A stretch of 64,000 nt of DNA from an uncultured candidatus Porisulfidus sp. (GTDB taxonomy: Bacteria > Pseudomonadota > Gammaproteobacteria > Poriferisulfidales > Poriferisulfidaceae): NCBI GenBank assembly GCA_965204575.1, contig OZ241993.1, forward strand, positions 320,001 through 384,000, read 5' to 3'. The notes beneath the pieces are model-generated. The model saw only the letters and a program-made list of their open reading frames with translations. It ran no database searches and had not been told where the DNA came from. Positions 7,364-24,801 of the stretch are shown in pieces; positions within the stretch are counted from its first letter, which is position 1; every line of letters starts with the position of its first letter. A program made the position numbers and the translations under genes.

Positions 7364-7421
7364 ATAGTATCACTATTAGATGCTTTAAGAAAGTTATAAA
7401 TATTTCTACAGAAATTACAGG

Positions 7422-7450
7422 TTGACTTCAAGGCTTATTCAGACTAGGCT
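7422..7450 (+). promoter_or_regulatory. Putative sigma70 promoter of the phd-vapC operon
   Basis: TTGACT, 17 nt spacer, TAGGCT; AGGAGG RBS before GTG 7493. Confidence 0.45.
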
Positions 7451-7492
7451 GATACTGGTTGAAACGTTTGATGCTTTCAGGAGGAAAATTCC

Positions 7493-10370: not shown

Positions 10371-11060
10371 CTACCTGTCGCTACCCAATTCCCGCTTCTC
10401 ATAGATGTTCGTAATGTGCCGCCCATCCCAGACGTAGCAGAGATGCCGTTCCTGCCGAGCGTTCGAGAGAACGGACGGACGGAAAACAGCGGCGCATTCA
10501 CCTCCGGCCTGGCGGAGGCTATCGTAAACGATCCCATTGGATCCAGACTCGTGTAACGTCCTGCTTAAGTGTTGGCCTGCTGCATGATCGTCAGGGTGAT
10601 AGATGAGTGGCTGCGTGGTTCCTTGTCCGCGCAGGTCATGGAGTTTGCCCTCAAGGTCAACCAGGTAGACCCGCATGTCCAGTTCCATGTGTGGCTGTGA
10701 GGTAGCGCGCAGGAACCGCTCGCGGTAATGCCGGGTTTCGGCAATGGCCGTATCGAGGTGATTCGCGGAATAGAAGACCCCGTAGGAACCATCGGAGAAC
10801 CGGCTGCCGCTCGGATTCAGGTGGGCGAACGCCGCCATAATGATGCTGGTGCCCGGTCCACTGATGCGGTCTTCGGCGGGAAAAACCTGTATGGCGCCCG
10901 CCTCGTCACGAAGCCTGGGGTTGGTCAGCGCGTCCAATTCGAAGATTGCCTCCAGGTCTTGCGGCTCCGCCACCCTCTCGAAGAGCTGGACCGGCGGGAA
11001 TCGGCTGGGAATGATTCGCCAGGACGGCTTCCACGCGATACGGGCAACCGGCAGCGTCAC
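10371..11060 (-). CDS. RES-domain toxin (MbcT/ParT-like)
   Basis: RIIPSRFPP, SRFSDGSYGVFY, TAIAETRH, GIVYDSLR (R-E-S residues). Confidence 0.9.
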   Translation of the reverse strand: MTLPVARIAWKPSWRIIPSRFPPVQLFERVAEPQDLEAIFELDALTNPRLRDEAGAIQVFPAEDRISGPGTSIIMAAFAHLNPSGSRFSDGSYGVFYSANHLDTAIAETRHYRERFLRATSQPHMELDMRVYLVDLEGKLHDLRGQGTTQPLIYHPDDHAAGQHLSRTLHESGSNGIVYDSLRQAGGECAAVFRPSVLSNARQERHLCYVWDGRHITNIYEKRELGSDR

Positions 11061-11461
11061 GCCCAGCCGCCACGCTCTGCGTCGAGGTACTGCCGGACGA
11101 GGAACAAGTCTGCCACTTGGCCGGACAGCATCCGGTCAAGCGCTGACTGGCCGCCGAACAGGGGGGCGGCGTTTGGCTTCTTCACCCATTCATCGGCGGC
11201 TTTTTCGTCGGGCAGAAGAATCTGAAGCGCCTTGTAGATTCCTATGATGTAGGAGATGCGCTCCAGGGCGTCCTTGGGCAGAACGACGTTGGCATCCTTC
11301 TTCCATTTGAAGAAAGTCGAGCGGGCGCTGAGCCCGAGAAGGGTGATCTGTTCTTCGGCCGACAGGCCCCAAAGCTCCATGATGCGGAAAAACGCACGTA
11401 GGGCGGGGCCAGACATGGCCTTGCGGTCGGGAACTGTCGCCGGGAGTGTTTGCGTAGCCAT
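11057..11461 (-). CDS. Xre/MbcA/ParS-type antitoxin
   Basis: HTH, ERISYIIGIYKAL, W.KKPN.APLFGGQSALDRML, VRQYLDAERG; overlaps the RES start. Confidence 0.9.
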   Translation of the reverse strand: MATQTLPATVPDRKAMSGPALRAFFRIMELWGLSAEEQITLLGLSARSTFFKWKKDANVVLPKDALERISYIIGIYKALQILLPDEKAADEWVKKPNAAPLFGGQSALDRMLSGQVADLFLVRQYLDAERGGWA

Positions 11462-11633: not shown

Positions 11634-13013
11634 TCAACTTAAAACCTGCAGCATCTCTTCGCGACGGGTGAACTTCTCCCGCGGCTTGCCCTTGGGTTCG
11701 CCCCGGCTGACTTCTTCCGCATCAATCCGCTGCCATTCCGGAAAGTCGATGCTGCGCACACCGCGTTCCTGCAGCAACTTGGCCAACGCGTCCATTCCCG
11801 CGCGGTCCGCGGGGAGGTTATTCAGATCCCCCTTCAGAGATTCGACCGTCTGCACCGCGCAGGCGCGGTTGGTTCCGATGATTCCGGAAGGCCCGCGTTT
11901 GATCCAGCCCGCCGTATAGATGCCTGGCACGACCGCCCCATCCGGGCCATCGGTAATCCGGCCATCCTGATTCGGGAAAACACCCCAGGAATCATGGAAC
12001 GGCACACCCTCGATCGGCACTCCCCGGTAACCAATGGAGCGAAACAGCAGCCCGCACTCCAAGGTTTCGGTCTCGCCCGTACCCGAGGCCCGTTGCGAAA
12101 ACGGTTCGCCGGACAGTTCGTTGCGTTCCAGTACCACCCGTTCGATCCGGCCGTCCCCTTCGATTCGGATTGGGCTCCGGCAGAACATCATGCGGCAGGT
12201 CCGGGCCTTGCTCTGCTCTGCATCCTCCGCCATTCTCTCGAAGATTGCCATGTTCTTGGCAGCCACCACGCCTGCCTTCTTGTCGTCGACCTCGGCCTGG
12301 CTGGCTTCATTGAGCACCAACTCTTCTGAAGCGATCGCCGCTTGGCAATTTTCCAGTTCCAGAAACTCGCGCAGTTCCTTGGTGGTGAACTTCGCCTGCG
12401 TCGGCCCCCGGCGCCCAACGACTGCAATTGTTTTGATCCGGCTTTCGGCCAGCGCATCCAAAGCGTGCTGGCTGATGTCGGTATGCTTGAGCTCATCGAC
12501 AGATTTGGACAGGATGCGGGCGACATCCGCCGCCACGTTCCCTTGCCCGATGATCACGGCGGTTTCATGCGAGAAGTCGAATTCCCGGTCCCGGTAGTCC
12601 GGGTGACCGTTGTACCAGCCGACGAACTCCGTCGCGGTATGACTGCCCGCCAGATCCTCGCCCTCGATCCCGAGACGGCGGTCCGTTTCAGCACCGCAGG
12701 TATAAATCACGGCGTGGTAAGCGTCCCGCAACTCCTGCGGCGTGACGTCCCTTCCGACCGTCACGTTGCCGAAAAAGCGAAAACCCTCAAGTGCGGCGAC
12801 TTTCTTGTAGACTTCGATCGACTGCTTGAGCTTGGGATGGTCCGGCGCGACACCACTGCGCACCAGCCCGTAAGGGGAAGGCAGACGCTCGATCAGGTCG
12901 ACCCGGGCAGCGATCTCGGATTTCAGCAATGCCTCGGTGGCATAGAACCCACTCGGCCCGGCGCCGACCACCGCGACCTGCAAGGGCGCGGCTTCTGTCC
13001 CCAGTTGGCTCAC
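11634..13013 (-). CDS. Ferredoxin-NADP+ reductase, adrenodoxin reductase/FprA type
   Basis: GAGPSG FAD motif, PYGLVRSGVAPDHP, FVGWYNGHPD, GQGNVAADVAR, GWIKRGPSGIIGTN. Confidence 0.92.
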   Translation of the reverse strand: MSQLGTEAAPLQVAVVGAGPSGFYATEALLKSEIAARVDLIERLPSPYGLVRSGVAPDHPKLKQSIEVYKKVAALEGFRFFGNVTVGRDVTPQELRDAYHAVIYTCGAETDRRLGIEGEDLAGSHTATEFVGWYNGHPDYRDREFDFSHETAVIIGQGNVAADVARILSKSVDELKHTDISQHALDALAESRIKTIAVVGRRGPTQAKFTTKELREFLELENCQAAIASEELVLNEASQAEVDDKKAGVVAAKNMAIFERMAEDAEQSKARTCRMMFCRSPIRIEGDGRIERVVLERNELSGEPFSQRASGTGETETLECGLLFRSIGYRGVPIEGVPFHDSWGVFPNQDGRITDGPDGAVVPGIYTAGWIKRGPSGIIGTNRACAVQTVESLKGDLNNLPADRAGMDALAKLLQERGVRSIDFPEWQRIDAEEVSRGEPKGKPREKFTRREEMLQVLS

Positions 13014-13017: not shown

Positions 13018-13323
13018 TCAGAACCCTAGTGCGGCCTTGCGCTCGTCCGCTCCCGGCAGCGGGTCCATTTTCTCTTCGATCACCGGAAGTTCGGGGGCTT
13101 TCTCAGCATTGATTTCGAGCCACTCCTGCTTGTCCTCCGGCAGGTCGTCTTCTTCGTAAATCGCCTGAACCGGGCATTCCGGGATGCAGGCGCTGCAGTC
13201 AATGCAGACATCCGGATCGATGTACAGCATTTCATCGTCGTAGTGAAAGCAGGCGACTGGGCAGACCGTTACACAATCCGTATAACGGCAACCCTTACAG
13301 TTATCAGTTACGATCGTGGTCAT
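13018..13323 (-). CDS. fdxA: Dicluster ferredoxin, FdxA type
   Basis: CKGCRYTDCVTVCPVACF and CIDCSACIPECP with acidic C-terminal extension; AGGAG RBS. Confidence 0.9.
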   Translation of the reverse strand: MTTIVTDNCKGCRYTDCVTVCPVACFHYDDEMLYIDPDVCIDCSACIPECPVQAIYEEDDLPEDKQEWLEINAEKAPELPVIEEKMDPLPGADERKAALGF

Positions 13324-13375
13324 TCAAGGCTCCTAAGTAAGTGAAGCGGGCGCAGGATTAAATTATAGACGAGGG

Positions 13376-14188
13376 TCAACGCGAGTCGAACACCAGGATT
13401 TCGCCGCGGTTCTCTTCTATGCCGTCCCCGCAGTAGCGGCGATAACGCCCACTCATGTGGTCGTCGTCGATCTCGAAGCCGCTCTGCCCCAGGTGGCACA
13501 GGTAAAACCTGAGAAATGTCGGCCGCAGCCAGCAGGAATAAGTGAAGGTCGGCAGTAACTCGACCGGCCGGAACGAAACGATCGAGCCGCGCACCATGCC
13601 GGCGCCCGGACGGATGCCCATCCCGCCCATGACGACGATGGTCCCGGCGCGCATGTTGACGCCGACGAAATCGCCCGCCTGGCCGCCAACCGCGATCAGG
13701 CCGCGGCGCATGGCCGACCCCAATTCGTTCTTGACATCGCCGTGGATCAGGATCTCTCCACCCATGATGCCCATGCGCTGGCCCCGGTAGGCACTGCCCA
13801 CCATGTGCCCGGCATCGCCCATCACCTCGATCCGCCCCCCGCTCATCTCCGGCCCCACCCAGTCCGAAGCGTCTCCGGAAACACGGATGACCCCTCCGGA
13901 CATGCCGGCGCCGAGGTGCATCCCGGCGGAACCATTCACGCGAATCTCGCCCTCCTTCATCCCGGCCCCGATGTACTTGACCCGCGACAGGTCGCCTTCC
14001 AGGCGCAGTGAAACCTGGCCGTTCCCGGTCACCCGGAAGAAGTCCCCGACCCGCACCTTGCGGTTGCCGTGCATCATCCCGAGGTTTTCGATCCCCGACT
14101 GCGACAACCCCTTGATTTTCGCGGGGCTCAGGCATTCCGCCTCGATCGGCACCTCGGGCGTCGCGATCAGTTCCAGCTCGGTGTGCAT
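13376..14188 (-). CDS. fwdC: Formylmethanofuran dehydrogenase subunit C (FwdC/FhcC)
   Basis: GXGXG beta-helix repeats (IGAGMKEGEIRVNG, LGAGMSGG, MRRGLIAVGG), LLPTF. Confidence 0.93.
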   Translation of the reverse strand: MHTELELIATPEVPIEAECLSPAKIKGLSQSGIENLGMMHGNRKVRVGDFFRVTGNGQVSLRLEGDLSRVKYIGAGMKEGEIRVNGSAGMHLGAGMSGGVIRVSGDASDWVGPEMSGGRIEVMGDAGHMVGSAYRGQRMGIMGGEILIHGDVKNELGSAMRRGLIAVGGQAGDFVGVNMRAGTIVVMGGMGIRPGAGMVRGSIVSFRPVELLPTFTYSCWLRPTFLRFYLCHLGQSGFEIDDDHMSGRYRRYCGDGIEENRGEILVFDSR

Positions 14189-14190
14189 GG

Positions 14191-15084
14191 TCAGCCGCTC
14201 TCCAGCAGTTCGTAGAGGGAAAACTTGTACTGGCCGAGCGTTCCGCCGTAGTTCCCCGCACTGACGTAGTCCACGCCACGCTCCGCCGCAGCCTGGATGC
14301 CCCGCCGCATGGCTTCGCGCAGCACAGCCTCGTCGAGGCCGTTGACCACCACCTCGTAAACCGCCGCGATGCCTTCCGGCAGCGCCGAATTCTCCACTCG
14401 CCCCCGCAGGGTCGGGCAGTAGGCTTCGTTGGTCGAGGCGATCAGGTTCTTGTAGCGGGAACCCACCTTGCTGCCGGAACCGACCACGCCCTGCGGGAAC
14501 GGCAGGAACACGCCCGCCACGTCGCGCATCGCATCGGCCGCGCCGGAGGCGGCGCGCAGAGCGGTTCGCCCGCTTTTCCCCAGCATCAACAGGTTGCCAC
14601 CACCGATGGCGGGCTGGACCCCGAACACATCATCGACCAGGAACTCTCCCCCCATGATCGGGATTCTCCAGAACCTCCGGCCCCCCACCACCTTGGCGAT
14701 CTGGTGGCCGTCGCCGAAGAACCGCAGCCGCTGGCCGACCGGGACAGTGGTTTCGCCGTCCAACCCGTTGTAGCAGGCGGTCGTCGGGCAGGTCATCACG
14801 CACTGCCCGATCCGTTCGACCAGGCGGGCGCTCATGTCCTTCTCGCTCATCGCGAACAGCAGCACGCTGATTCCCGGGCGCAGGTCCGGCGTGTCGGTGT
14901 CGGGAATCTCGCATTCCACCGCCGCCTCGCATTTGCAGCGGATCACGGAAGTGGCGAAGCCGGTGAAGGACTGTGCCGCGGCACGCGCCCAGTTCTTGGT
15001 GTCGGCGGTGATGATGACGCGCGCGCCCCACATGCCGAAGGCCTCGGCGAAGGTGTCGACCACCTCGGTCTTGCCGACCCTCAT
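14191..15084 (-). CDS. ftr: Formylmethanofuran-H4MPT formyltransferase (Ftr/FhcD)
   Basis: VDTFAEAF, TGFATSVI, IGQCVMTCPTTA, FFGDG, SGSKVGSRY, ASTNEAYCPTL, AGNYGG.LG; ATG overlaps the fwdA TGA. Confidence 0.95.
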   Translation of the reverse strand: MRVGKTEVVDTFAEAFGMWGARVIITADTKNWARAAAQSFTGFATSVIRCKCEAAVECEIPDTDTPDLRPGISVLLFAMSEKDMSARLVERIGQCVMTCPTTACYNGLDGETTVPVGQRLRFFGDGHQIAKVVGGRRFWRIPIMGGEFLVDDVFGVQPAIGGGNLLMLGKSGRTALRAASGAADAMRDVAGVFLPFPQGVVGSGSKVGSRYKNLIASTNEAYCPTLRGRVENSALPEGIAAVYEVVVNGLDEAVLREAMRRGIQAAAERGVDYVSAGNYGGTLGQYKFSLYELLESG

Positions 15085-16757
15085 TTGCCCCTCTTCTTCC
15101 GCCCGTTCCCGGAATTGCGCAGCGGGATGACCTCGTGATCGTGGAGATAGGAGGCATCCACCCGGTAGTTGTTGAACTGGATCGAATAGTAGTCCTCGAA
15201 GAACGGCCGGATCTGCTCCTCGATCGTCGGATCGTGCTCGGGCTCCGTATGCAGGAACCGCCCGATGTGGTCTTCGACGAATTCGTGATCCTCGATGATC
15301 AGCTTGCCCGCCTTGATGACGTAGCGCGGCGCGTTGAACATCCTTTCGCGGTTTTCGTCGTCGGTAAAGATCGTGATGTCGGCATCCGCGCCCACCCCCA
15401 GGTGCCCCTTGTTCGCCAGGCCCAGCGCCCGGGCGGGGGCGGCTCGGGTGATGATGGCGATTTCCGACAGGGTGTATTCCCGGTCCAGTTGCGGCAGCAG
15501 GCAGTTGTTGATCGCCTTCTGGTTGACCTGCCCCATCATCTCGGCGCGAAAGCCCCGGTCCATCAGCAGGCGGATCAGCCGGGGATACGTTTGGAAGGAA
15601 GCGCCGTTCGGGCTGTCGGTCGAGAACATCACCCGCCAGGGGTCCTGCGAGAGCAGGAACAGCTCCAGGCCGATCGCCCACTGCATGGTATGCGTGTAAT
15701 TCGTGTTCTGGTAGGAAAACGGCATGACCCCGCAGCCGCTCTCGCACTCGGTGTCCGCATTGACCCACTTGGTGTCCTTGGAGCGCAGCATCCAAGTCAG
15801 CGGCGCATCCGCCGTCATGGCGGTCGCCTTGCCGAACATCACCATGCCGATGTCGGTGGTGATGTTTTCGTGGGTGTTGATGTAGTCGATGATGGCTTCC
15901 GAGCCGGTCTGGACGCGCTTTCCAAGTTCGCCGGCATAACTGTGGAACTGGACGTGCGCGATGTGCGCCCGGTGCCCCTCGGCCGCTTTCATCGTATCCA
16001 GCGTGGTCTGGACATTGCCGCTGTGCCCCAGGTTGTTGCAGTGGATGTGCGCCGGATGCGGCAGGTCCAGTTCGTCCACCGCCTCGATGAAGGCCGCGGT
16101 CGCCTGCAGCGGCGTGAACTCGAACGGATCGACTTCCTCGTTGACGTCCGTGACGTTCTCGTTGCGCTTGCCCTTCCAGAGTTCGTCGCTGCCCGCGTTG
16201 ACCAGCTTGACGCCGGCCGCCCGCGACGCCGTGACCCACCACGCGATGGCCTCCTTGAACTCCTTCCTGCGGCCCTGCTTCAGCAGGTCGTACAGGAACA
16301 TGTTGTTGCCGAGCAGGACGTAGAAGCCCTTGTCGATCACCGGCGTGTCGTGGAATTCCTCGATCACGTGGCGCGCCGCCATCGGCGGCACCGCCGCATC
16401 GAAGGCCGTGGTGTAGCCGAGCGCGGCGTAGCGGTAGCCCGTGGCGAACGTCGAGGGCGCGATCCCGCCGACCCCGGAACGGGTGATCGCGGTGCCCGGA
16501 TGGACGTCCAGGCGATGGTCCTCGGGCTGCAACTTGCGCGCGAGATTGACTTTCGGTCCGGCGATGTGGCTGTGGATATCGACCCCGCCCGGCATCACCA
16601 CCATGCCGCGGGCATTGATGGCCCGCGCTTTCTCGGAGATCTTGTCCACCACGCGCCCGTCGCGCACCAGGATATCGCGGACCTCGCCGTCGATGCCGTT
16701 GGCCGGGTCGTAGACCTTCCCGCCCTTGATGCGCAGTTCCACGCTGTTCTCAGCCAT
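15081..16757 (-). CDS. fwdA: Formylmethanofuran dehydrogenase subunit A (amidohydrolase)
   Basis: DIHSHIAG, TFATGYRYA, GVKLVN, HIHCNNLG, HVQFHSY, QWAIGLELFL, GADADI. Confidence 0.95.
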   Translation of the reverse strand: MAENSVELRIKGGKVYDPANGIDGEVRDILVRDGRVVDKISEKARAINARGMVVMPGGVDIHSHIAGPKVNLARKLQPEDHRLDVHPGTAITRSGVGGIAPSTFATGYRYAALGYTTAFDAAVPPMAARHVIEEFHDTPVIDKGFYVLLGNNMFLYDLLKQGRRKEFKEAIAWWVTASRAAGVKLVNAGSDELWKGKRNENVTDVNEEVDPFEFTPLQATAAFIEAVDELDLPHPAHIHCNNLGHSGNVQTTLDTMKAAEGHRAHIAHVQFHSYAGELGKRVQTGSEAIIDYINTHENITTDIGMVMFGKATAMTADAPLTWMLRSKDTKWVNADTECESGCGVMPFSYQNTNYTHTMQWAIGLELFLLSQDPWRVMFSTDSPNGASFQTYPRLIRLLMDRGFRAEMMGQVNQKAINNCLLPQLDREYTLSEIAIITRAAPARALGLANKGHLGVGADADITIFTDDENRERMFNAPRYVIKAGKLIIEDHEFVEDHIGRFLHTEPEHDPTIEEQIRPFFEDYYSIQFNNYRVDASYLHDHEVIPLRNSGNGRKKRGK

Positions 16758-16791
16758 GCCGGCCGTCTCCTGCCCTGGCCTGCGATGGGAG

Positions 16792-18150
16792 TCAGGCCGC
16801 CTTCTTGCGGCCGTTCGCCCGGAGTTTCTTCACCCGGTCGAGGATCCCGGTCAGGACCTCCTCGTCAGTCGGAAACGGGGAATCGAAGGCCGGGCGCAGG
16901 GTGATCGGCACGTCGTCCATGCGATAGACGGTGCCGCCCGTGTTGATCCCGTAGGTGGCCACCATGAAGGCAACCCGCGCCTGCCGGCTGGTGTAGGTCG
17001 GCTTGGCATCCAGCGAAATCACCGGAATTTTCTTCAAGTGCTCAATGGCGCGTTTCGGGAAATTCGAGGCCGGGTCGGTGGCGATCATCATGGCCGCGTC
17101 GGCGTCACCGCGCGCCAGCAGGTCCACGGTGGTGTATTCGCCGGGGTTGAAGCGCGGGTAGCCGCGGTGGAAATTGACGCCGAACGGGTAGCCGGTCTGC
17201 CAGGACACCACGTTGTCGGCGCCGGTGACGTTGCCGTGGCCGCGGACCGGCTTGGCGACGAAGTGCGTATACCTGTTGAGGTCGGTGGCCAGCGCCAGCA
17301 GCGCCCCCGAGTTGAAGTGGCGGCCGCGGGTCATGGTCAGGCCCATGCCGAAGAACAGGACCCCGAAGTTGCAATTCTTCATGCGTTCCACCAGTTCGTC
17401 CAGGACTTCCCGCGACACGCCCGTAATTTCCTCGATGTCGGGATCGATATCGCGGCCCCGCACCAGGGCGCGCAACGCCCACAGCAACTCGAAGTCGCGA
17501 CCGGGCTTGACCCGGATGAGCTGATCCGCCACCGGCGCACTCGGCGTCTTGCGGACGTCGATCAACACCACGTGACGGTCTTTCTTGCCGTTCGGGATGT
17601 AGCGCCCCTTCGGCGTCACGGTATAGCGGGTGAAATGCCGCGGATGGGACTCGGCCGGGTTGCCGCCCCAGTAAATGACCAGGTCGGCGCGGTTCTTGAC
17701 CTCTCCCAGGGTCGACGTGCTTTCGCCCACGCCCTGGAACGCGATGCCGGACGGGCCATGGCACACGGAAGTGGTGGTGTCGATGTTGCCGAGCACCAGG
17801 TCATTGATGGCCACCGCCACCCGCTGCGCCTCGCATGGAGAATCGCTCAGGCCGTAGGTGATCGGGAATTTCGCTTCGTGCAGGATGCGCGCGGCTTCGT
17901 CCATCGCTTCTTCCAATGGCACCTCGCGCCCGTCGATCATCGCCTGCGGGTGATCCTCGATGCCGTGCTGGAGGAACCAGGCCCGGCCGAGAACGCAGGC
18001 GTTCTTGGCTTTCGTAATCCGGTTCGCGTCAAGGTCGACGGTCAACTCCATGTCGTCGCAGACACACCCGCAGAATGTGCAGGTGGCATCCTCGACGATG
18101 CGGATATTGGGTTCGTCCTTGGGGGCTTCGGTGGTTTTGGTGTCGCTCAT
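16792..18150 (-). CDS. fwdB: Formylmethanofuran dehydrogenase subunit B (Mo/W-bisPGD)
   Basis: CTFCGCVCDD...NACVLG [4Fe-4S] ligands, VCHGPS metal-ligand Cys, TLGEVKNRADL, SHPRH, RGHGNV. Confidence 0.93.
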   Translation of the reverse strand: MSDTKTTEAPKDEPNIRIVEDATCTFCGCVCDDMELTVDLDANRITKAKNACVLGRAWFLQHGIEDHPQAMIDGREVPLEEAMDEAARILHEAKFPITYGLSDSPCEAQRVAVAINDLVLGNIDTTTSVCHGPSGIAFQGVGESTSTLGEVKNRADLVIYWGGNPAESHPRHFTRYTVTPKGRYIPNGKKDRHVVLIDVRKTPSAPVADQLIRVKPGRDFELLWALRALVRGRDIDPDIEEITGVSREVLDELVERMKNCNFGVLFFGMGLTMTRGRHFNSGALLALATDLNRYTHFVAKPVRGHGNVTGADNVVSWQTGYPFGVNFHRGYPRFNPGEYTTVDLLARGDADAAMMIATDPASNFPKRAIEHLKKIPVISLDAKPTYTSRQARVAFMVATYGINTGGTVYRMDDVPITLRPAFDSPFPTDEEVLTGILDRVKKLRANGRKKAA

Positions 18151-18175
18151 GGTCTCAACGGGCAAGGCAGGATTT

Positions 18176-18529
18176 TCATTTGGCGTTCAGGCATTCCACT
18201 TCCACCATCATCTGTTTCGACATCGGCATGCCGGAACCTGCGGTGTCGCTTTCCATCAGTTCGCTGGAAGACGGGCCGTACGGGATGAAGATCATCCCGT
18301 CTGGAAGATCCTCATCTTTGCGCGGCTTCCCGCATTCGACTTCCACCTTGCCGGTGGCACAGGACAGGCGTACTCGGTCTCCGGCGGAAAGGCCCAATTT
18401 ACGCATGGTGCTCTCGTTCATCTCGATGGTCGAGGTGACGGTCTGGTACTCTTCCTTGAGTTTCCCGGCATTCAGGGAGGTTCCCTGCTTGCTTGATCGC
18501 CCGGGTATCAGAATCATCTGTTCGGCCAC
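18176..18529 (-). CDS. fwdD: Formylmethanofuran dehydrogenase subunit D (pterin-dinucleotide binding)
   Basis: 117 aa; LIPGRSSKQG, GMIFIPYGP, DTAGSGMP.SK; first gene of the cluster. Confidence 0.88.
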   Translation of the reverse strand: MAEQMILIPGRSSKQGTSLNAGKLKEEYQTVTSTIEMNESTMRKLGLSAGDRVRLSCATGKVEVECGKPRKDEDLPDGMIFIPYGPSSSELMESDTAGSGMPMSKQMMVEVECLNAK

Positions 18530-18703: not shown

Positions 18704-21700
18704 CTACCAGCGGGAGCTCGACCGCAGCAGCACCGCGTGCTCCGGGGACCCGTCGATGTCCGTCCGGCGCACCATGTCGAGATGCGCCTCGAAGCCCGAA
18801 TCGTCCGGCACCGCCGACGTCAGACGCCAGCCGACCCGGTATTCCCGCATCCCGTCGACCACGCCCACGCCCGCGTTCGGCGTCCCGGTCAGGCCCCCCG
18901 GCATCGCCAGCCCGTAGCCGGCCTCGGCCCGCAGGCCCCGCGACGCCTCGAACTCCGCGCCCCCCGGCGCAACACCGCGCACGTCCCGCGCGCCCCACAG
19001 GCGCTCCGACGCGCTCGACGACGCCCCCAGCGTCGGCTGCAGCGAAAACGCCATCCCCCGACCCTGGGAGCCCGGATCCAGGCGCACCGCCGCGCTCGCA
19101 CCCCATTCCTCGTAGTCCGAGTCCGCATGCACCACCAGCATCCGCGCCTTCGCCTCCACGCTCAGCCCCGACCCCGGGTCCGCATAACTCATCCCCCCCC
19201 CCAACTCCACGCCGGTGCCGCTCTCCGCGTCGCCCCCGTCGTGCCGCAGGCCCAGCTCCAGCGACGGACGCAACGTCGCGCCCGAATCGAACTCCAGCGT
19301 CCGCGCCCCCTCCAGCGCCAGCCGCATCCGCAGGCTCTCCGCCTCCGTGTCCGACTCCCCCGACACCGCGTCCCAGCGGATGTGCGTGAAAAACGCGTCC
19401 GCCTTCAGCGCCAGGTCCAGGCCTCCGGACGCCCCGGCCTCCCGCAGCAGCCCGCGTGCGCCCAGCGCACCCAGCCGCATCGAAAGCCCGCTCCGGCTCA
19501 CCGACTGCACCCGGCCCAGCTCGACCCGCGCATCCTGGCGGATCCGCATCGAACCCACGCCCCAGCCGACCAGCGCCCAGGCTTCCACCTTCTCGCCCAG
19601 CTGCACGCGCGCGTAGGGACTCACCGTGGTCATCGTGCTCTCCATCTCTCCGGAGTCCACCCCCGGAACCGCGAAGCCGCCGCCGCCGTCGCTCCGGCTC
19701 AGCGCCACCCCCGCCAGCAGATGCGTCCACTGCGCGTCCGCCCCGAACACCCCGGTCACCACCTCGCCGTCCAGGCGCAACCGCCCGGCGTCTCCCGCCG
19801 CGCCGTCGAAGTTCCCGTCATGCGCCACCCGGCCCCAAGCCGAAAGCCCCGGGCCGCGACCGTCGCGCGGCACCGAGACATGGAACGCGCTCCCCCGCAA
19901 CAAATCCCGCGCCGACAGGCGCGATGCGCCCGACTGCGCCAGCCCGGCCAGCGCCGAACCCAGTTCCGCGCTCCCCGGCGACAGCGACTGCCCCGCCACC
20001 GTCACGTGCGCCCCCGGCGCCAGGCCCTCGAAGCGCTTCGACACCACCTCCGTCAACTGGCCCGCCACCGTGCGCCCGAAGCGCGACAGCCACGCCTTCT
20101 GCAGCGGGTCCTCGTTCACAATCAGGCCGGTCGCGCGCGCGTCCGCGATGCGCGCCCCCACCGCGTTCGACAGCGTCAGCGAAAACCGCTCCCGGCCCTC
20201 GTCCACCGCGTCGTCCAGGATCGACACCGATACCGTCTTCTCCGTCTCCCCCGGCGCGAAGCGAAGCGCCCCGCGCGCCGCCGCGTAGTCCGACCCCGCC
20301 GACGCCGTGCCGTCCGCCGTCGCGTAGTCCACCGTCACCGCCTCGGGCAACGCCCGGTTCAGCACCACCGAGAACGACACCGCCGCGTCGCGGCCTTCCC
20401 GCGCGCGACCGCCCTTCAGCTTCAGCTTCGCCGGCCCCGGCACCGACACGCTCACCGTGTTCGACAGCGACCGCCCCCCGGCCGTGCACACCGCGCCCGC
20501 CGTGCCGCAGTCGCGTCCGCCCGCCAGCGTCACCTCCACCTGCCGCTTCCAGTTGCGCGGCGCGACCTGCACCTGCCACAGCCCCGGCTCCACCGGATTC
20601 ACCGACTTCACCCGGCCCTTCGACACCGCGAAGGACGCCGCCTCCAGCACCGTCTCCAGCGGCTCGCCGAAACGCACCCGCAGCGAGAACGCCGTGCCGT
20701 CGTGCTCCTCCGGCACCGCCTCGAACGACGCCTCCAGCGCGCCGCCCTGGGCCGCCTCCGGCTCCGGGGGAGGCGTCCGGGTCACGACCTGCTCTTCTGT
20801 CGGCTCCGGCTCCGGCTCCGGCACTGCCACCGGCTCCGGCGCCTCGGTCACGTCGATGCGGTAGGTCGTCATGCCGCCCGCACCGCTCGCCATCACCCAC
20901 AACTCGGTCGCGCCGCCGTCCGGCGCGAGGCCCAGCGCCACCGCCGTCCCCGAGGGCCGCACCCGCACCGGGCGCGTGTAGCTCGCCGCGCCCCGGCGCG
21001 AGCCCGCGAACACGCTCGACTCGCCGCCCCAGCGCGGCGCCAGCGTCACCCCCGTCGTCCCCGCCGGCACCGACGCCCGGTACGACGTCACCCCCGGCGC
21101 AAACGCCGGGCTCAGCGCCACCGCCGACGAACCGGCCGACAGCGCGAGCCCGCACAGCGGCCCCGCCGACGACGCGCACGACAGGGCCGCCTCGACCGAC
21201 GCGTCCGGCGCCGCCGACGCCACGACCTTCGCCTCCGAGGTGTTCGACAGCACCCGCCCGTCCGGCGAGCACACCGCCCCGTCCGCGTCGCAGTCCCGAC
21301 CGCCCGCCAGCGTCACCGATACCGCCTTCTCCGCCGAGGCCGGCGCGATCCGCACCTGCCACAGCCCCGCATCGGTCTGCTCCACCGCCTCCACCCGGCC
21401 CTGCGACACCGTGAACGCCTCCGCCCGGAGCGTGCGGCTGTAACTCGTCCCCAGCACCTCGCTGAGGCGCACCCGGAACGCGAACGCCCCGCCGTCGTGC
21501 TCCTCCGGCACCGCCTCGAACGACGCCGTCAGCGCGTCGCCCTCGACCTCCGGCAGCGGCTCCTCGCCGCCCCGGTACGTATTCGTCTGCGGAACGCTCG
21601 ACGCCATCGTCCGGGCCCGGGATAGCGCCCAAGCTTCGTCGATAATCGTTATCGTCGTCGACGCGGCGGCCCCCACGCTGTAGAGCGGGTAGATGTCTCC

Positions 21701-22711
21701 AGGGTTTTTCACGTGGGCCAGGGTGAGGACGACGGTCTCGTCACTCTCCCTTTGCCGGGCATCTACTGTGGGGGTCAGGGTGAACCCCACCTCCGACACG
21801 CCGTTCGGCAACTTCAGGAAGTACTCGGTGCCTTCCTTCACCAGTCCCCCGATCCTGGCTATGAGGGCAGTGCTACCGCCGACTTCACCGAGTAAATAAT
21901 CATAATTGGGGCTGAGGGTGTAGTCGCTGGCGGTGGCCGTGCCGCCGATGCCGAGCTTGACGCGGGCCGATCTGGGCAGCGGCGGATTGATCGTCACCTT
22001 CACTCTCGCGGCGGGGGGGAACGGGGGGCCGTTCTTGACTCCCTCCTGGATCCGGCCATCCGGAATCCGCGGCCGGGTCTTTAGCGACGGATTCACCATG
22101 TCGCCGAACTGCACGACGCTACCCCCCTGGTACGCGACCGCGTTGGGACAGCTGGCGCGGATGCTCAGGGCCACGGTCTGGCCGCGCCGCCACCCCAGGT
22201 GCGCGAACCCGAAGATGGCGGAATTGCGACCGCCGTACTGCACCGCATCCCTGAACGCCAGCGCCCGGCTCCCGACGCACAGGCTCAGATCATCCAGCGC
22301 GGTCGTCACGTCACGGTTGAAGTTCATCGCGAAGTAGCCGTTGAGCGGGTTGTACCGGATCGCCAGGATCGTATAGGTGACCCCGCCGTGCACGAAGTCG
22401 TCGTCCGACAGCACGCTCGTGCTCGCGCAGTTCTCGTCGGCCTCCGGGACGAACGGGGAACTACTACTGCTAGAAACAGTAGGGTCGGTATATCTAGTGC
22501 TGCAGGCCGAGGCGGAGTCCTTGGTGTTCACCGACACCGTCAGATTCGCCGTCCAGACCTGCGACCAGGCCGGGGCGCCCGGCAGCAGCAGCGCGCCGAA
22601 CAGCGCGGGCAACAGCAGCAGGCGACCGGAAAGGCGCGGCCTCCGGGACGACGGCCCCGTCATGGCCGATTCCGTTTCGGGGGGGGGGGGGGGGCTTGAA
22701 ATCTGGCTCAT
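18704..22711 (-). CDS. Large autotransporter/adhesin with Calx-beta and Ig-like repeats
   Basis: AGGAG RBS, signal peptide (ALLLPGAPAWS), Calx-beta (VDYATADGTA.AGSDY, FAPGETEKTV, DDAVDEG), AWLSRFGRTVA linker, barrel (LRHDGGDAESG), terminal Trp. Confidence 0.88.
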   Translation of the reverse strand: MSQISSPPPPPETESAMTGPSSRRPRLSGRLLLLPALFGALLLPGAPAWSQVWTANLTVSVNTKDSASACSTRYTDPTVSSSSSSPFVPEADENCASTSVLSDDDFVHGGVTYTILAIRYNPLNGYFAMNFNRDVTTALDDLSLCVGSRALAFRDAVQYGGRNSAIFGFAHLGWRRGQTVALSIRASCPNAVAYQGGSVVQFGDMVNPSLKTRPRIPDGRIQEGVKNGPPFPPAARVKVTINPPLPRSARVKLGIGGTATASDYTLSPNYDYLLGEVGGSTALIARIGGLVKEGTEYFLKLPNGVSEVGFTLTPTVDARQRESDETVVLTLAHVKNPGDIYPLYSVGAAASTTITIIDEAWALSRARTMASSVPQTNTYRGGEEPLPEVEGDALTASFEAVPEEHDGGAFAFRVRLSEVLGTSYSRTLRAEAFTVSQGRVEAVEQTDAGLWQVRIAPASAEKAVSVTLAGGRDCDADGAVCSPDGRVLSNTSEAKVVASAAPDASVEAALSCASSAGPLCGLALSAGSSAVALSPAFAPGVTSYRASVPAGTTGVTLAPRWGGESSVFAGSRRGAASYTRPVRVRPSGTAVALGLAPDGGATELWVMASGAGGMTTYRIDVTEAPEPVAVPEPEPEPTEEQVVTRTPPPEPEAAQGGALEASFEAVPEEHDGTAFSLRVRFGEPLETVLEAASFAVSKGRVKSVNPVEPGLWQVQVAPRNWKRQVEVTLAGGRDCGTAGAVCTAGGRSLSNTVSVSVPGPAKLKLKGGRAREGRDAAVSFSVVLNRALPEAVTVDYATADGTASAGSDYAAARGALRFAPGETEKTVSVSILDDAVDEGRERFSLTLSNAVGARIADARATGLIVNEDPLQKAWLSRFGRTVAGQLTEVVSKRFEGLAPGAHVTVAGQSLSPGSAELGSALAGLAQSGASRLSARDLLRGSAFHVSVPRDGRGPGLSAWGRVAHDGNFDGAAGDAGRLRLDGEVVTGVFGADAQWTHLLAGVALSRSDGGGGFAVPGVDSGEMESTMTTVSPYARVQLGEKVEAWALVGWGVGSMRIRQDARVELGRVQSVSRSGLSMRLGALGARGLLREAGASGGLDLALKADAFFTHIRWDAVSGESDTEAESLRMRLALEGARTLEFDSGATLRPSLELGLRHDGGDAESGTGVELGGGMSYADPGSGLSVEAKARMLVVHADSDYEEWGASAAVRLDPGSQGRGMAFSLQPTLGASSSASERLWGARDVRGVAPGGAEFEASRGLRAEAGYGLAMPGGLTGTPNAGVGVVDGMREYRVGWRLTSAVPDDSGFEAHLDMVRRTDIDGSPEHAVLLRSSSRW
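20435..21540 (-). repeat. Two diverged ~100 aa domain repeats inside the autotransporter
   Basis: AL.ASFEAVPEEHDG.AF..RVR...GLWQV..AP...VTLAGGRDC...GAVC...GR.LSNT at about 21225-21540 and 20435-20742. Confidence 0.85.
22679..22694 (-). repeat. C16 homopolymer in the 5' coding region (G16 on + strand)
   Basis: 16 consecutive G on +, encoding SPPPPP about 6 codons after the ATG. Confidence 0.9.
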
Positions 22712-22852
22712 TGCGATGTCTCCTGGTCTCAGGTGCTTTGGAATCACTCGAGCGGGACGCGCCCGCGATACCAGATTAGATTGGTTTTTCACGGGCCGCA
22801 TCGCCAAAGCGGCTCTACTGTAGAGTCTATCACAAGTTGATGGACCGTTTAT

Positions 22853-24116
22853 CCCCGATCTCCGAGCTAACGCGATTTTGCAGGATTTTTGCCTGCCGCG
22901 GAGTGACGGCAAGAGGTTTTCAAGCGAGTGATGGCCGTTGCGGGGTGATTTCGCGCTTGACAGCGAAGGGTCCGCCCGGTTTTCGAGTTTTCGGCAGCTT
23001 GTCGCGCAGGGCTCCGCTCGCCGCTCAGGCGGCCCGTGCCAGGGTCGCAGCCGAACCGGTCGTCACGAAGTGTCGTAGGCCAGGAACCCGGCCATTCGGT
23101 CCAGCGCCTGCCGGACCCGCTGCACATGAGCCGTCTGGAACACCAGCCGCCGGTTGCGGGCATGCCGCACCACCTTGGCCACCAGGTGGACCCAGCACAG
23201 GCGCACCTGCTTCATCCGGGTCCACAGCCAGTCGCGTCCGAACGCGGCATGCCGCAGCAGCGCGTTGACGTTGGCCGACAGCACCGCCAGCTGCCACCAG
23301 GCGGCGTTCGCCCCGAACTTCCCCGACGGCATCATGCCGCCGGCCAGGTCCTGCTTGAGCACGGCGTGCACCTCTTCGCCATGCCCGCAGCGCTCGTGCG
23401 CGAAGCGCACCACCTCCGAGGCGGTCATCCCCAGGCCCGCCCCCTCCCCGGAGCGCCCCGGATACGGCAGGTTGGTCAGATAGACCCGGTAGCGGTACGC
23501 CGGACGCCCGGACCTCGCCGGCGTCTCGTCCGGGTTCACCCCCAACACGCCAGGCAAGACACGCCGGGTGCCGACATGGTGCAGCAGCTGCCCCCGCGAC
23601 TGCCGCGCGCCCCACGGCGAGACATAATCCAGGTCGGCGCATTCCAGTTCCGGCTCCGAGGCTCGCACCGGCTCCCACCACGACGCCGGCGCCACCCCCA
23701 GAAGCTCCGGCTCGTAGTCGCGCACCAGCCGGCACAGGCTGCGGTCCGCCTCCAGCGCGTCCACGTCCGAGACCCGCTCGTGACCGATCACGTTGAGCAG
23801 CAGCACGGTCAGCATCATCTGCCCGTCGCGCCAGCCCTGCGCCCCGGCCACCTGCACCGGAAGGGTCCGAAACGCCCCGCTGCGGCGCAGCAGCTCCAGC
23901 CACAGGACGGCCCCGCCACAGGCGCTGGTTCGACTCAGATTGGGGTCGCCCCCGATGGCGACCAAAGAGGAAAAATCAGACATATAATGAGACTCCCGGT
24001 TGGTTGTTTCCGGTTCACCCAATGGGTGAAACTTTTGCACCACCGATTTTAACCGTTTCACTCGGTTAAATAAGCACCAACCGGGACCCCACTCTCATTT
24101 AGCTCGGAGATCGGGG
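22853..24116 (-). mobile_element. IS1380-family element, internally deleted (1264 bp)
   Basis: Perfect 18 bp TIRs CCCCGATCTCCGAGCTAA (22853-70 and 24099-116); 5 bp direct repeat TTTAT (22848-52 and 24117-21). Confidence 0.9.
23063..23983 (-). pseudogene. IS1380-type transposase lacking the central DDE core
   Basis: N-terminal QGW.DGQ...LLLN..G...V.D...LEAD and C-terminal ERCG..EE.HAVLKQDLAGG..PSGKFGANAAWW present; LDxDAT and LRxD motifs absent; about 306 aa. Confidence 0.8.
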
Positions 24117-24244
24117 TTTATGAACGGGTTCGCGGGAGGATTGATCCCGCACGCCCGGGCCCGCCCAAAGCGGCCCGAATTCGCCCCTCCCCTGGAAGCG
24201 CGCCGGATTGCCATGCGCGGCAAGCGTCGGTCCCTCCCCGCATC

Positions 24245-24724: not shown

Positions 24725-24801
24725 CGGACACCCTGCTGGTTCAACGGTTTTGCCGACTCGGCACAGCAACAGCCCTCAAGGGCACACCACCGACCCGTGC
24801 A

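What the first reader, a model, noticed from the sequence alone, without database searches (positions are those of the whole stretch)
13376..18529. Archaeal-type, apparently redox-competent formylmethanofuran dehydrogenase operon in a gammaproteobacterium-like genome
Seen: fwdD-fwdB-fwdA-ftr-fwdC, tightly packed. FwdB keeps CxxCxxxC...C [4Fe-4S] ligands, the VCHGP metal-ligand Cys/His and RGHxNV, and a separate FwdD is present. Known: the Fhc complex of Methylorubrum (fhcBADC) has lost the pterin cofactor and FwdD and only releases formate, whereas methanogen Fwd/Fmd interconverts formyl-MFR and CO2. Inference: this hybrid has bacterial gene order with Ftr built in plus an intact Mo/W site, so it could oxidise formyl-H4MPT straight to CO2, or run in reverse. 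No polyferredoxin fwdF/G is in the cluster.
Basis: partly seen in the sequence, partly recalled or inferred. Interest (0 to 1): 0.78.

Follow-up and report, generated by a model that had tools for sequence, protein, structure and literature searches.

The report
Bacterial redox-type formylmethanofuran dehydrogenase operon
A sponge-associated bacterium carries a seven-gene operon that looks like a working, archaeal-style metal enzyme able to burn formaldehyde-derived carbon straight to CO2 and hand the electrons to NADP+, not the formate-releasing version known from model methylotrophs.

Summary
fwdD-fwdB-fwdA-ftr-fwdC lies at 13376-18529 on the minus strand. FwdB keeps all four [4Fe-4S] cysteines, the Cys-His pair and the Arg of the Mo/W site, and matches archaeal FwdB far better than Methylorubrum FhcB (E 1e-112 against 7e-11). 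These follow fwdC in 60 of 62 related loci that are long enough to show it. In a sample of 401 Gammaproteobacteria there are two operon kinds. This "type 1" (20 genomes) has FwdD, intact FwdB, ferredoxin and reductase. An Fhc-like "type 2" has none of the catalytic residues (0 of 43) and no FwdD. The two often lie in tandem. FwdB is the best-conserved subunit in type 1 and ties with FhcC as the worst in type 2. This genome has only type 1, no recognisable formate dehydrogenase, and genes of H4MPT, methanofuran and Moco synthesis. The most likely function is formyl-MFR oxidation to CO2 with NADP+ reduction; this is untested. The fwdDBA-ftr-fwdC layout is already in print (PMC7325909), and this scan has noted the seven-gene form before on other DNA.

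The parts
18176..18529 (-). fwdD: small cap subunit (molybdopterin dinucleotide-binding 'fourth domain'), 117 aa
   Evidence: PF01568 E 2.7e-11. NF042908 FwdD scores 76 bits, below its 175-bit cut-off. Solved FwdD chains match: 2ki8_A 4.5e-15 and 5t5i_D 4.3e-13. A homologue lies upstream of fwdB in 76 of 76 related loci with room for it.
16792..18165 (-). fwdB: Mo/W-bis-pterin subunit with an N-terminal [4Fe-4S] domain, 457 aa
   Evidence: TIGR03129 503.9 bits. Archaeal FwdB chains match at E 1e-102 to 7e-115 over the full length, against 7e-11 for Fhc subunit B 6s6y_B over the C-terminal part only. C29, C32, C36, C57, C135, H136 and R308 are invariant in 27 aligned sequences and in 15 of 15 type-1 loci.
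15081..16757 (-). fwdA: amidohydrolase subunit (formyl-MFR hydrolase/synthase site), 558 aa
   Evidence: TIGR03121 684 bits. Archaeal FwdA 8rja_A scores 460 bits, FhcA 6s6y_A 348 bits. H62, H64, K184, H239, H268 and D381 are conserved in at least 97% of 58 type-1 and type-2 sequences.
14191..15084 (-). ftr (fhcD): formyl-MFR:H4MPT formyltransferase, 297 aa; its start overlaps the fwdA stop by 4 nt
   Evidence: PF01913 and PF02741. TIGR03119 397.8 bits. FhcD 6s6y_D 7.8e-86 and archaeal Ftr 1ftr_A 5.4e-85.
13376..14188 (-). fwdC: beta-helix subunit with an FhcC-like C-terminal tail, 270 aa
   Evidence: TIGR03122 248 bits. Archaeal FwdC chains align only to about residue 217, whereas FhcC 6s6y_C aligns over 19-266, including LLPTF and RRYxGD.
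13018..13323 (-). fdxA: 7Fe ([3Fe-4S][4Fe-4S]) ferredoxin, 101 aa, the proposed electron acceptor of FwdB
   Evidence: The 7Fe ferredoxin I chains (e.g. 1axq_A) match at E about 1e-32. NF045490 FdxA scores 120.5 bits, below its 135-bit cut-off. All nine Cys are invariant in 20 sequences. It follows fwdC in 60 of 62 loci.
11634..13013 (-). fprA-like NADPH:ferredoxin reductase (adrenodoxin reductase family), 459 aa
   Evidence: 1cjc_A adrenodoxin reductase 1.1e-108 and 1lqt_A FprA 2e-108, both full length. Orthologues of at least 58% identity occur in 24 of 400 genomes, all of them among the 55 genomes with Fwd/Fhc.

Best explanation
The seven genes fwdD-fwdB-fwdA-ftr-fwdC-fdxA-fprA encode a bacterial, redox-active formylmethanofuran dehydrogenase with a docked formyltransferase and its own electron outlet. 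The proposed path has three steps. (1) Ftr moves the formyl group from formyl-H4MPT to (methylo/methano)furan. The formyl-H4MPT is made from formaldehyde by Fae, MtdB and Mch, and in this organism the formaldehyde probably comes from methanethiol oxidase. (2) FwdA hydrolyses formyl-MFR. (3) The formate is not released. FwdB/FwdD oxidise it to CO2 at a Cys-ligated Mo- or W-bis-pterin site, and the electrons leave through the FwdB [4Fe-4S] cluster to the 7Fe ferredoxin and then through the FprA-type flavoprotein to NADP+. Shown here: gene content, residue conservation, synteny, phyletic coupling, and the presence of cofactor pathways. Inferred: cofactor loading, direction of the reaction, the ferredoxin/FprA/NADP+ route, and Ftr docking on FwdC.
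For: FwdB is archaeal-like over its full length, with every FeS and active-site residue aligned. FwdD is present.

In a 401-genome class sample, 55 genomes have a FwdB/FhcB homologue, and these fall into two kinds. Type 1 is D-B-A-ftr-C-fdx-fpr and keeps C-C-C-C/C-H-R in 15 of 15 loci fetched. Type 2 is B-A-ftr-C, has no D, and keeps the Cys, His or Arg in 0 of 43.

Median pairwise identity over 60 random pairs is B 76.8, A 69.5, Ftr 63.1 and C 59.2% in type 1, with B above A in 58 of 60 pairs. In type 2 it is B 40.7, A 63.8, Ftr 61.7 and C 41.0%, with B above A in 0 of 60 pairs. B is therefore constrained like a catalytic subunit only in type 1.

fdxA-fprA follow fwdC in 60 of 62 loci with room for them. 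FprA orthologues are found in 19 of 20 type-1 genomes and in 0 of 345 genomes without Fwd/Fhc.

This genome has a single FwdB and no type 2. No FDH alpha passes its cut-off, nor any NAD-FDH, and no formate-THF ligase was found. Its only other MopB enzyme has no Cys-His dipeptide.

Cofactor genes found are beta-RFAP synthase, MptN-like ligase, MoaE and MoeA, MfnB, MobA and a TupA/TupB-like transporter.

The operon sits at the same chromosomal place (aroC-MFS ... SlipAM-MFS) in close relatives, so it is native.

In 24-33 of 80 related loci (by gene) it lies beside Mch, Fae and other H4MPT-pathway genes, and in 17 of 80 beside methanethiol oxidase. This genome has the mtoX cluster elsewhere.

Weak hint: contigs of two sponge metatranscriptome runs from one study, 90-97% alike, cover parts of all seven genes and bridge the fwdC-fdxA-fprA, fwdA-fwdB and fwdB-fwdD junctions. 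DNA carry-over was not excluded.
Against: There is no biochemical evidence anywhere for a bacterial enzyme of this kind, and none was found in the searches listed under Tried and rejected.

Two of five complete type-1-only genomes (G052, G254) do carry an FdsA-like FDH. Absence of FDH is therefore not a general trait of type-1 holders.

No ModA was found. The Tup-like proteins score below NCBIfam equivalog cut-offs, so metal uptake and the choice between Mo and W remain open.

FwdD scores below the curated FwdD cut-off, and FdxA below the curated FdxA cut-off.

The related loci are kin, so the synteny counts are not independent events. The loci fetched for the residue and conservation counts also come from one class.

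Most type-2 FhcB proteins keep the four FeS cysteines (34 of 43), so keeping those cysteines is not proof of redox function.

The tallies include four unpublished genomes (G039, G141, G296, G308), whose DNA I did not fetch.
Confidence: 0.65

Rival explanations
1. The complex is redox-active, but FdxA and FprA are not its electron outlet. They might serve cofactor maturation or general ferredoxin turnover, or feed electrons inward, with the electrons from FwdB going elsewhere, for example to the respiratory chain through another carrier.
For: A second FdxA paralogue (53% identity) exists in the genome. In two sampled loci fpr, or fdx-fpr, lies beside a type-2 operon with no type 1 (L154, L164). 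One locus has fpr upstream instead of downstream (L092) and one lacks both genes (L088). One sigma-70-like site lies in front of fdxA, but that is no more than chance gives (1 found, 1.2 expected).
Against: The order is conserved in 60 of 62 loci. The gaps between fwdC, fdxA and fprA are only 52 and 4 nt. FprA orthologues occur only in genomes that have Fwd/Fhc: 24 of 24, and 0 of 345 others. From recall: FprA-type enzymes use 7Fe ferredoxins as partners.
Confidence: 0.15
2. It is only an Fhc-like formyltransferase/hydrolase. FwdB and FwdD are cofactor-less scaffolds and formate is the product.
For: The only bacterial complex studied, Methylorubrum FhcABCD, works this way (PMC6926001, passages). 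The gene order B-A-ftr-C and the FwdC tail are Fhc-like. Two type-1-only genomes have an FDH that could use formate.
Against: Every feature that Fhc lost is retained and invariant here. Genomes that need a hydrolase carry a separate, degenerate type-2 operon, often in tandem. B is the most conserved subunit. This genome has no recognisable FDH or formate-THF ligase to dispose of formate.
Confidence: 0.08
3. It runs in the reductive direction, fixing CO2 to formyl-MFR with electrons from NADPH via FprA and FdxA, for C1 assimilation.
For: Archaeal Fwd is reversible and normally reduces CO2 (PMC6926001, passages). FprA-type enzymes normally pass electrons from NADPH to ferredoxin (recalled).
Against: From recalled values, the CO2/formyl-MFR couple (about -530 mV) lies far below NADPH (-320 mV). 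No bifurcating or energy-coupling module is in the operon. The neighbours are formaldehyde-producing and formaldehyde-oxidising genes: Fae, Mch and methanethiol oxidase.
Confidence: 0.05
4. It is a recently imported or decaying island without a role. The basis would be its high GC3 and its flanking transposase and toxin-antitoxin genes.
For: GC3 of the fwd genes is 0.86-0.89, against 0.37-0.81 for most of the other called genes of the window (the two ORFs just upstream also reach 0.86-0.89). A transposase fragment, a large adhesin-like gene and Xre-RES genes flank the operon.
Against: The operon sits between the same aroC-MFS and SlipAM-MFS genes in relatives of 87-99% FwdB identity, and the adhesin and toxin-antitoxin genes are the strain-specific inserts. 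All frames are intact. A truly decayed copy looks different (L173).
Confidence: 0.02

Closest known systems
Archaeal tungsten/molybdenum formylmethanofuran dehydrogenase FwdABCD(FG) (Methanothermobacter wolfeii 5T5I; also 8RJA, 9SFI, 7BKB, 9SW6)
   Same: The FwdA, B, C and D subunits all have full-length matches. FwdB keeps the [4Fe-4S] cysteines, Cys-His and Arg, and FwdD is a separate cap.
   Different: No FwdF/G polyferredoxin or FwdE is in the cluster. Ftr is encoded inside the operon. FwdC has an Fhc-like tail. A 7Fe ferredoxin and an FprA-type NADPH reductase are attached. The host is an aerobic-type gammaproteobacterium, and the likely direction is oxidative.
Formyltransferase/hydrolase complex FhcABCD of Methylorubrum extorquens (PDB 6S6Y; PMC6926001)
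   Same: The gene order is B-A-ftr(D)-C. Ftr belongs to the unit. The FwdC C-terminus aligns with the FhcC region that holds the helix-loop-helix. Both work in the H4MPT formaldehyde-oxidation context.
   Different: FhcB lacks the FeS domain, Cys118 (Ser62), His119 and Arg288, and has no FwdD. Here all of these are present. FhcB matches the window's FwdB only at E 7e-11, over the C-terminal part.
fwdDBA-ftr-fwdC operon of Hakuba Actinobacteria (Merino et al. 2020, PMC7325909, passages read)
   Same: It has the same five-gene order, no fwdE/F/G, and a FwdB reported to have an N-terminal [4Fe-4S] domain and Cys118.
   Different: The phylum and proposed role differ (Wood-Ljungdahl context, with H4MPT synthesis genes not observed there). 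No ferredoxin/FprA module is reported, and no paired Fhc-type operon.
Mycobacterium tuberculosis FprA / bovine adrenodoxin reductase with 7Fe ferredoxin partners
   Same: The 459-aa protein matches both over the full length at E about 1e-108. The ferredoxin is of the Azotobacter FdI 7Fe type.
   Different: Here the pair is welded to a C1-oxidation operon and is proposed to run from ferredoxin to NADP+.

Membership tests
Fwd/Fmd formylmethanofuran dehydrogenase | FwdB with an N-terminal CxxCxxxC...C [4Fe-4S] motif | tested here: met
   C29, C32, C36 and C57 align with solved FwdB and are invariant in 27 sequences.
Fwd/Fmd formylmethanofuran dehydrogenase | Metal-ligand Cys/Sec followed by His, plus the catalytic Arg (Cys118, His119, Arg288 of M. 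wolfeii FwdB) | tested here: met
   C135-H136 and R308 align with the CH and RGH motifs of 5t5i_B. They are present in 15 of 15 type-1 loci and 0 of 43 type-2 loci.
Fwd/Fmd formylmethanofuran dehydrogenase | Separate FwdD cap subunit (fourth domain) | tested here: met
   PF01568 passes its cut-off and solved FwdD chains match at 4e-13 to 4e-15. The curated archaeal model NF042908 is not reached (76 of 175 bits).
Fwd/Fmd formylmethanofuran dehydrogenase | FwdA amidohydrolase with binuclear-metal ligands, and a FwdC beta-helix | tested here: met
   TIGR03121 and TIGR03122 pass their cut-offs. The HxH, Lys, His, His and Asp positions are conserved.
Fwd/Fmd formylmethanofuran dehydrogenase | FwdF/FwdG polyferredoxin electron-transfer subunits | tested here: not met
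   No such gene is in the operon. The only ferredoxin is a 101-aa 7Fe FdxA. The rest of the genome was not searched for FwdF/G.
Fwd/Fmd formylmethanofuran dehydrogenase | Bound Mo/W-bis-pterin guanine dinucleotide and dehydrogenase activity | not testable with these tools
   Only the biosynthesis genes (MoaE, MoeA, MobA) and a Tup-like transporter were found.
Fhc formyltransferase/hydrolase complex | B subunit without pterin and FeS motifs, and no FwdD | tested here: not met
   All the motifs and FwdD are present.
Fhc formyltransferase/hydrolase complex | ftr (fhcD) inside the operon, in the order B-A-D-C | tested here: met
   The fhcBADC order is given in PMC6926001.
Fhc formyltransferase/hydrolase complex | FhcC C-terminal helix-loop-helix that serves as the platform for FhcD | tested here: inconclusive
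   Residues 217-266 align with FhcC 6s6y_C and not with archaeal FwdC. No structure or complex was modelled for this pair.
FprA/adrenodoxin reductase-type NADPH:ferredoxin reductase | Full-length homology to AdR/FprA | tested here: met
   1cjc_A 1.1e-108 (residues 9-458) and 1lqt_A 2e-108. Individual FAD and NADP motifs were not checked.
7Fe ferredoxin (Azotobacter FdI type) | Cys pattern for one [3Fe-4S] and one [4Fe-4S] cluster, plus the C-terminal extension | tested here: met
   C9, C17 and C50, and C21, C40, C43 and C46 are invariant. It aligns with FdI over residues 4-95. The assignment of ligands to clusters is recalled. NF045490 is 120.5 bits, below its 135-bit cut-off.

The most novel reading that the evidence does not exclude
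Type 1 is an oxygen-tolerant, NADP+-reducing Mo/W formyl-methanofuran dehydrogenase supercomplex, FwdABCD plus docked Ftr with FdxA taking the place of FwdG. It lets aerobic bacteria oxidise formaldehyde carbon to CO2 without ever releasing formate. It would also be the surviving ancestral form from which the textbook Fhc hydrolase arose, by tandem duplication followed by loss of FwdD and of the metal site.
Probability: 0.3. Interest if true: 0.75.

Novelty: new variant of a known kind. Interest (0 to 1): 0.6.

Why it matters
Textbook bacterial C1 metabolism ends the H4MPT pathway in free formate, made by the cofactor-less Fhc complex, and leaves CO2 formation to separate formate dehydrogenases. 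If the type-1 complex is active, many uncultured Gammaproteobacteria have a direct formyl-to-CO2 step that yields NADPH. These include upland-soil-cluster-gamma methanotroph relatives, marine sediment lineages and sponge symbionts. Such a step would change carbon and redox budgets in models of methane, methanol and methylated-sulfur turnover. It would also offer an aerobe-derived relative of the archaeal CO2-fixing Fwd enzyme for biochemistry. The clean within-class contrast between type 1 and type 2 operons gives a ready experimental pair.

Tried and rejected
Complex prediction of FwdB with FdxA returned 'no answer' (scores 0.30 and 0.22, mark 0.32). It counts neither for nor against binding.

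Recent-island reading. It was prompted by the high GC3 and the flanking transposase and toxin-antitoxin genes, and was rejected because close relatives share the same chromosomal position.

The PBP_like_2 protein at window 28083-29108 was considered as a tungstate binder. It is a phosphate-binding protein (9jwy_A 2.6e-85).

The 763-aa MopB enzyme at genome position 1428846-1431137 was considered as a hidden formate dehydrogenase. It has no Cys-His dipeptide, and its best solved match is acetylene hydratase over part of its length. Its function was left open.

Naming the nearest non-gammaproteobacterial relatives. Of 10 representative clusters looked up, only two gave an organism: Methanoculleus and Pirellulales.

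The promoter and terminator scan gave nothing above chance.

Literature. The searches found no paper describing the seven-gene operon, a bacterial FwdD in methylotrophs, or a biochemical test. (term 'fhcB' alone) mostly returned unrelated liver-fluke papers. PMC3282944 held nothing relevant. An earlier scan note says a CO2-forming role was already suggested for Methylomirabilis. My search did not find that statement.

Errors corrected: wrong frame, a term with a slash, and a script time-out.

RNA.

Full report
WHAT IS THERE. Five minus-strand genes fill 13376-18529 exactly as reported: fwdD (117 aa), fwdB (457 aa), fwdA (558 aa), ftr (297 aa) and fwdC (270 aa). The gaps between them are 10, 34, -4 and 2 nt. 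Pfam and NCBIfam assign them clearly. TIGR03129, TIGR03121, TIGR03119 and TIGR03122 all pass their curated cut-offs. FwdD passes PF01568 but not the archaeal 'exception' model NF042908. Two more genes follow on the same strand, 52 nt and then 4 nt downstream. The first is a 101-aa ferredoxin of the 7Fe ferredoxin I kind (E about 1e-32 to the solved 7Fe ferredoxin I chains, e.g. 1axq_A; all nine Cys invariant in 20 homologues). The second is a 459-aa flavoprotein that matches bovine adrenodoxin reductase and the FprA chain 1lqt_A over its full length (E about 1e-108).

IS FwdB OF THE ACTIVE KIND? Against the Protein Data Bank, FwdB matches five archaeal FwdB chains over its whole length (E 1e-102 to 7e-115). 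It matches the subunit B of the Fhc entry 6s6y only at E 7e-11, and only over the C-terminal part. In the printed alignments C29, C32, C36 and C57 line up with the FwdB [4Fe-4S] cysteines. C135-H136 line up with the metal-ligand Cys (an X, which I read as selenocysteine, in 9sfi_Q) and His. R308 lines up with the RGH arginine. According to passages of Hemmann et al. 2019 (PMC6926001), these are the features that FhcB has lost: Cys118 became Ser62, His119 and Arg288 are not conserved, there is no N-terminal FeS domain, and there is no FwdD. That paper also gives the gene order fhcBADC.

THE HYBRID CHARACTER. FwdA is closer to archaeal FwdA (460 bits) than to FhcA (348 bits). Ftr is equally close to FhcD and to archaeal Ftr. 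The beta-helix of FwdC is closer to archaeal FwdC, but those alignments stop near residue 217. FhcC aligns through residue 266, with LLPTF and RRYxGD conserved. In Fhc, the C-terminal part of FhcC forms a helix-loop-helix instead of the beta-hairpin of FwdC, and FhcC is the binding platform for FhcD. I infer that Ftr docks here too. I did not model this.

RELATIVES AND SYNTENY. A scan of one genome per species found 478 stretches that encode a relative. The best 80 (72-99% FwdB identity) are all uncultured-bacterium MAGs. Nearly all are titled Gammaproteobacteria, Chromatiales, Ca. Porisulfidus, Ca. Oxydemutatoraceae, USCg_Taylor or Thiotrichaceae, and a few carry other labels. Using profile HMMs built from these loci, FwdD lies upstream of FwdB in 76 of 76 loci with room. 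fdxA-fprA follow fwdC in 60 of 62 loci with at least 5.4 kb downstream. The two exceptions are L088, which lacks both, and L092, which has fpr upstream. In 22 of 56 loci with about 8 kb downstream, a second, divergent B(-A) set starts right after fprA. Conserved neighbours in 24-33 of the 80 loci (by gene) are H4MPT-pathway genes: Mch, Fae, an MptN-like ligase and an MtdB-like gene. A beta-RFAP synthase-like gene is a neighbour in 42 of 80. In 17 of 80 the upstream neighbours are methanethiol oxidase MtoX (760 bits, cut-off 650) with MauG-like and TlpA-like genes.

TWO OPERON KINDS IN ONE CLASS. I searched TIGR03129 in 401 genomes of the class at E <= 1e-25, and 55 have a match. Scores are bimodal. 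Twenty genomes have a copy of at least 494 bits. Fourteen of these also have a second copy of 234-386 bits (one of them only as fragments). Thirty-four genomes have only a low-scoring copy (185-410 bits), and one has a broken high-type copy.

I fetched 53 regions, leaving out the four unpublished genomes G039, G141, G296 and G308. Type 1 is D-B-A-ftr-C-fdx-fpr. Type 2 is B-A-ftr-C, with no FwdD. It also has no fdx or fpr, except in L154 (fpr adjacent) and L164 (fdx-fpr adjacent). Both types lie in tandem or close together in L131, L134, L136, L143, L145, L146 and L147.

All 15 type-1 FwdB proteins have C-C-C-C/C-H-R, with invariant TTSVCHGPS and KPVRGHGNV. None of the 43 type-2 proteins has the Cys, the His or the Arg. 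Thirty-four of the 43 still have the four FeS cysteines. L173 is a fragmented, decayed type 1.

CONSTRAINT. Over 60 random locus pairs each, median identity in type 1 is B 76.8, A 69.5, Ftr 63.1 and C 59.2%, with B above A in 58 of 60 pairs. In type 2 it is B 40.7, A 63.8, Ftr 61.7 and C 41.0%, with B above A in 0 of 60 pairs (12 type-1 and 33 type-2 operons with all four genes). A and Ftr act as internal controls because they are about equally conserved in both sets. Only B flips from best conserved to about the worst conserved (level with C). The pairs are not independent.

Among 150 representatives of 50%-identity clusters from a 1.84-billion-protein library, only about 16 keep all seven residues, so these residues are easily lost when not needed. 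In a FastTree tree (midpoint-rooted, supports not examined), type 1 forms a tight clade. It sits next to FwdD-FwdB fusion proteins and to a clade with intact residues that includes Methanoculleus, far from type 2. Within one locus the two paralogous sets are only 25-32% (B), 43-49% (A), 51-56% (Ftr) and 32-38% (C) identical.

THE ELECTRON OUTLET. I searched FprA in the same class sample, where 400 genomes were scored. Orthologues of at least 58% identity occur in 24 genomes. Nineteen of these are among the 20 type-1 genomes; the missing one, G010, is 75% complete and its contig ends at fwdC. The other five are G361 (decayed type 1) and G119, G204, G381 and G131 (type 2). None of the 345 genomes without Fwd/Fhc has such an orthologue. 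Five genomes have 41-46% relatives. These tallies include the four unpublished genomes. In this genome the operon's fdxA has a 53%-identical paralogue elsewhere, and fprA is single. From recall: FprA-type enzymes exchange electrons between NADP(H) and 7Fe ferredoxins, and the CO2/formyl-MFR couple is far more negative than NADP+/NADPH. Both facts favour the direction formyl-MFR to ferredoxin to NADP+.

THIS GENOME. It is a closed 1.82-Mb genome, 98.75% complete. Earlier notes of this scan and the run records point to a sponge-associated bacterium. It has one FwdB and no type 2. It has Mch, Fae, two Mpt_N proteins, beta-RFAP synthase and an MptN-like ligase, with MoaE and MoeA directly beside fae. 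It has MfnB and MobA. A TupB/ATPase/TupA-like transporter is present but scores below equivalog cut-offs, and no ModA was found. It also has an mtoX cluster with 69% MtoX identity.

It has no PQQ methanol dehydrogenase over the cut-off, no FDH alpha over the cut-off, no NAD-FDH and no formate-THF ligase. Its only other MopB enzyme lacks a Cys-His dipeptide. If the complex released formate, I can see no enzyme in this genome that would use it.

This pattern is not general. Of five complete type-1-only genomes, G000, G400 and G317 lack an FDH, but G052 and G254 have an FdsA-like one.

NATIVE, NOT AN ISLAND. In relatives with 87-99% FwdB identity the operon lies between aroC-MFS on one side and SlipAM-MFS(-dnaX) on the other. 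In this window the 1402-aa Calx-beta protein, a transposase fragment, an Xre-RES pair and AbiEi/PIN genes are strain-specific insertions around it.

EXPRESSION. Contigs from two sponge metatranscriptome runs of one study, 90-97% alike, cover 22 and 19 of 30 bins. They include records that bridge the fwdC-fdxA-fprA, fwdA-fwdB and fwdB-fwdD junctions. These come from a related strain. DNA in the libraries was not excluded and no control stretch was laid, so this is a weak hint.

WHAT IS KNOWN. The layout fwdDBA-ftr-fwdC without fwdE/F/G, with a FwdB that has the FeS domain and Cys118, was reported for Hakuba Actinobacteria (PMC7325909, passages). Wells et al. 2023 counted 149 bacterial FwdB and 94 FhcB homologues and inferred transfer from Archaea (PMC10100899, passages). 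I found no paper on the ferredoxin/FprA module, on the type 1/type 2 contrast, or on any biochemical test.

Earlier notes of this scan describe redox-type bacterial Fwd operons on other genomes. They include the seven-gene gammaproteobacterial form 'wired to NADP+' and a genome with Fhc plus Fwd plus an NADPH-ferredoxin reductase. My results agree with them and were obtained on this window's own data.

VERDICT. This is a new variant of a known kind: a conserved bacterial Fwd-Ftr complex with its own ferredoxin-NADP+ outlet. It is probably the CO2-forming end of formaldehyde oxidation in this symbiont. Confidence is 0.65, and the main gap is the complete lack of biochemistry.

Noticed in passing
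genome G000:C1:579584-580510 (locus L187:3584-4510, + strand), outside the window: There is a second Ftr paralogue (308 aa, 40% identical to the operon's Ftr). It scores 302 bits on NF002554, just over the cut-off. It sits between a 5-formyl-THF cyclo-ligase gene and folD. This suggests a formyl link between the H4MPT/MFR and folate pools in a genome without formate-THF ligase.
   Followed up: partly
window 18704-24769: A 1402-aa Calx-beta, autotransporter-like protein, a DDE transposase fragment and a 174-aa ORF lie between the MFS-like gene and fwdD. GC there reaches 0.73. None of them was detected at this spot in the closest relatives (L013-L017), so they appear to be a strain-specific insertion.
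   Followed up: partly
window 10371-11461 and 6554-8151: An Xre-like antitoxin with a RES toxin, and AbiEi and PIN genes, were not detected in the corresponding flank of the closest relatives, so they appear to be inserted between fprA, SlipAM and the MFS gene.
   Followed up: partly
window 42146-43576: An IS605-type TnpB/Cas12f-like gene (476 aa) is wedged between the glycyl-tRNA synthetase alpha (43566-44447) and beta (40046-42139) genes on the same strand. It overlaps glyQ by about 10 nt.
   Followed up: no
window 44465-53226: A type I restriction-modification system (HsdR with a Schlafen/AlbA_2 tail, HsdS, HsdM) has DUF6680, an unknown 141-aa gene and an AbiEi-like gene embedded between hsdS and hsdM. 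Its GC3 is low, 0.37-0.64.
   Followed up: no
genome G000:C1:1427370-1432255 (locus L012): A TsuA/YeeE-like transporter, a 763-aa cytoplasmic MopB enzyme with no Cys-His dipeptide (best solved match acetylene hydratase, partial) and an FNR-like reductase lie together. The function is unknown. The same trio of MopB scores recurs in relatives.
   Followed up: partly
genome G000:C1:141442-145484 (locus L186): A methanethiol oxidase (MtoX) cluster with a 249-aa ORF homologue, a MauG-like di-haem protein and a TlpA-like protein. In 17 of 80 related loci this cluster lies directly upstream of fwdD, which points to methanethiol as the source of formaldehyde.
   Followed up: partly
genome G000:C1:1480503-1482212 (locus L010:503-2212): moaE and moeA lie directly beside fae at the end of the H4MPT gene island.
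   Followed up: no
window 13362-13389, minus strand: A sigma-70-like site (TCGACT, 16 nt, TATAAT; 10 of 12 positions) lies at the fwdC/fdxA junction. It could be an internal promoter, but the count is no more than chance gives.
   Followed up: no
locus L173 (G361:C33:122001-142000): A decayed type-1 operon with fdx-fpr upstream, FwdD intact, and FwdB and FwdA in fragments. It shows what loss of the system looks like.
   Followed up: partly
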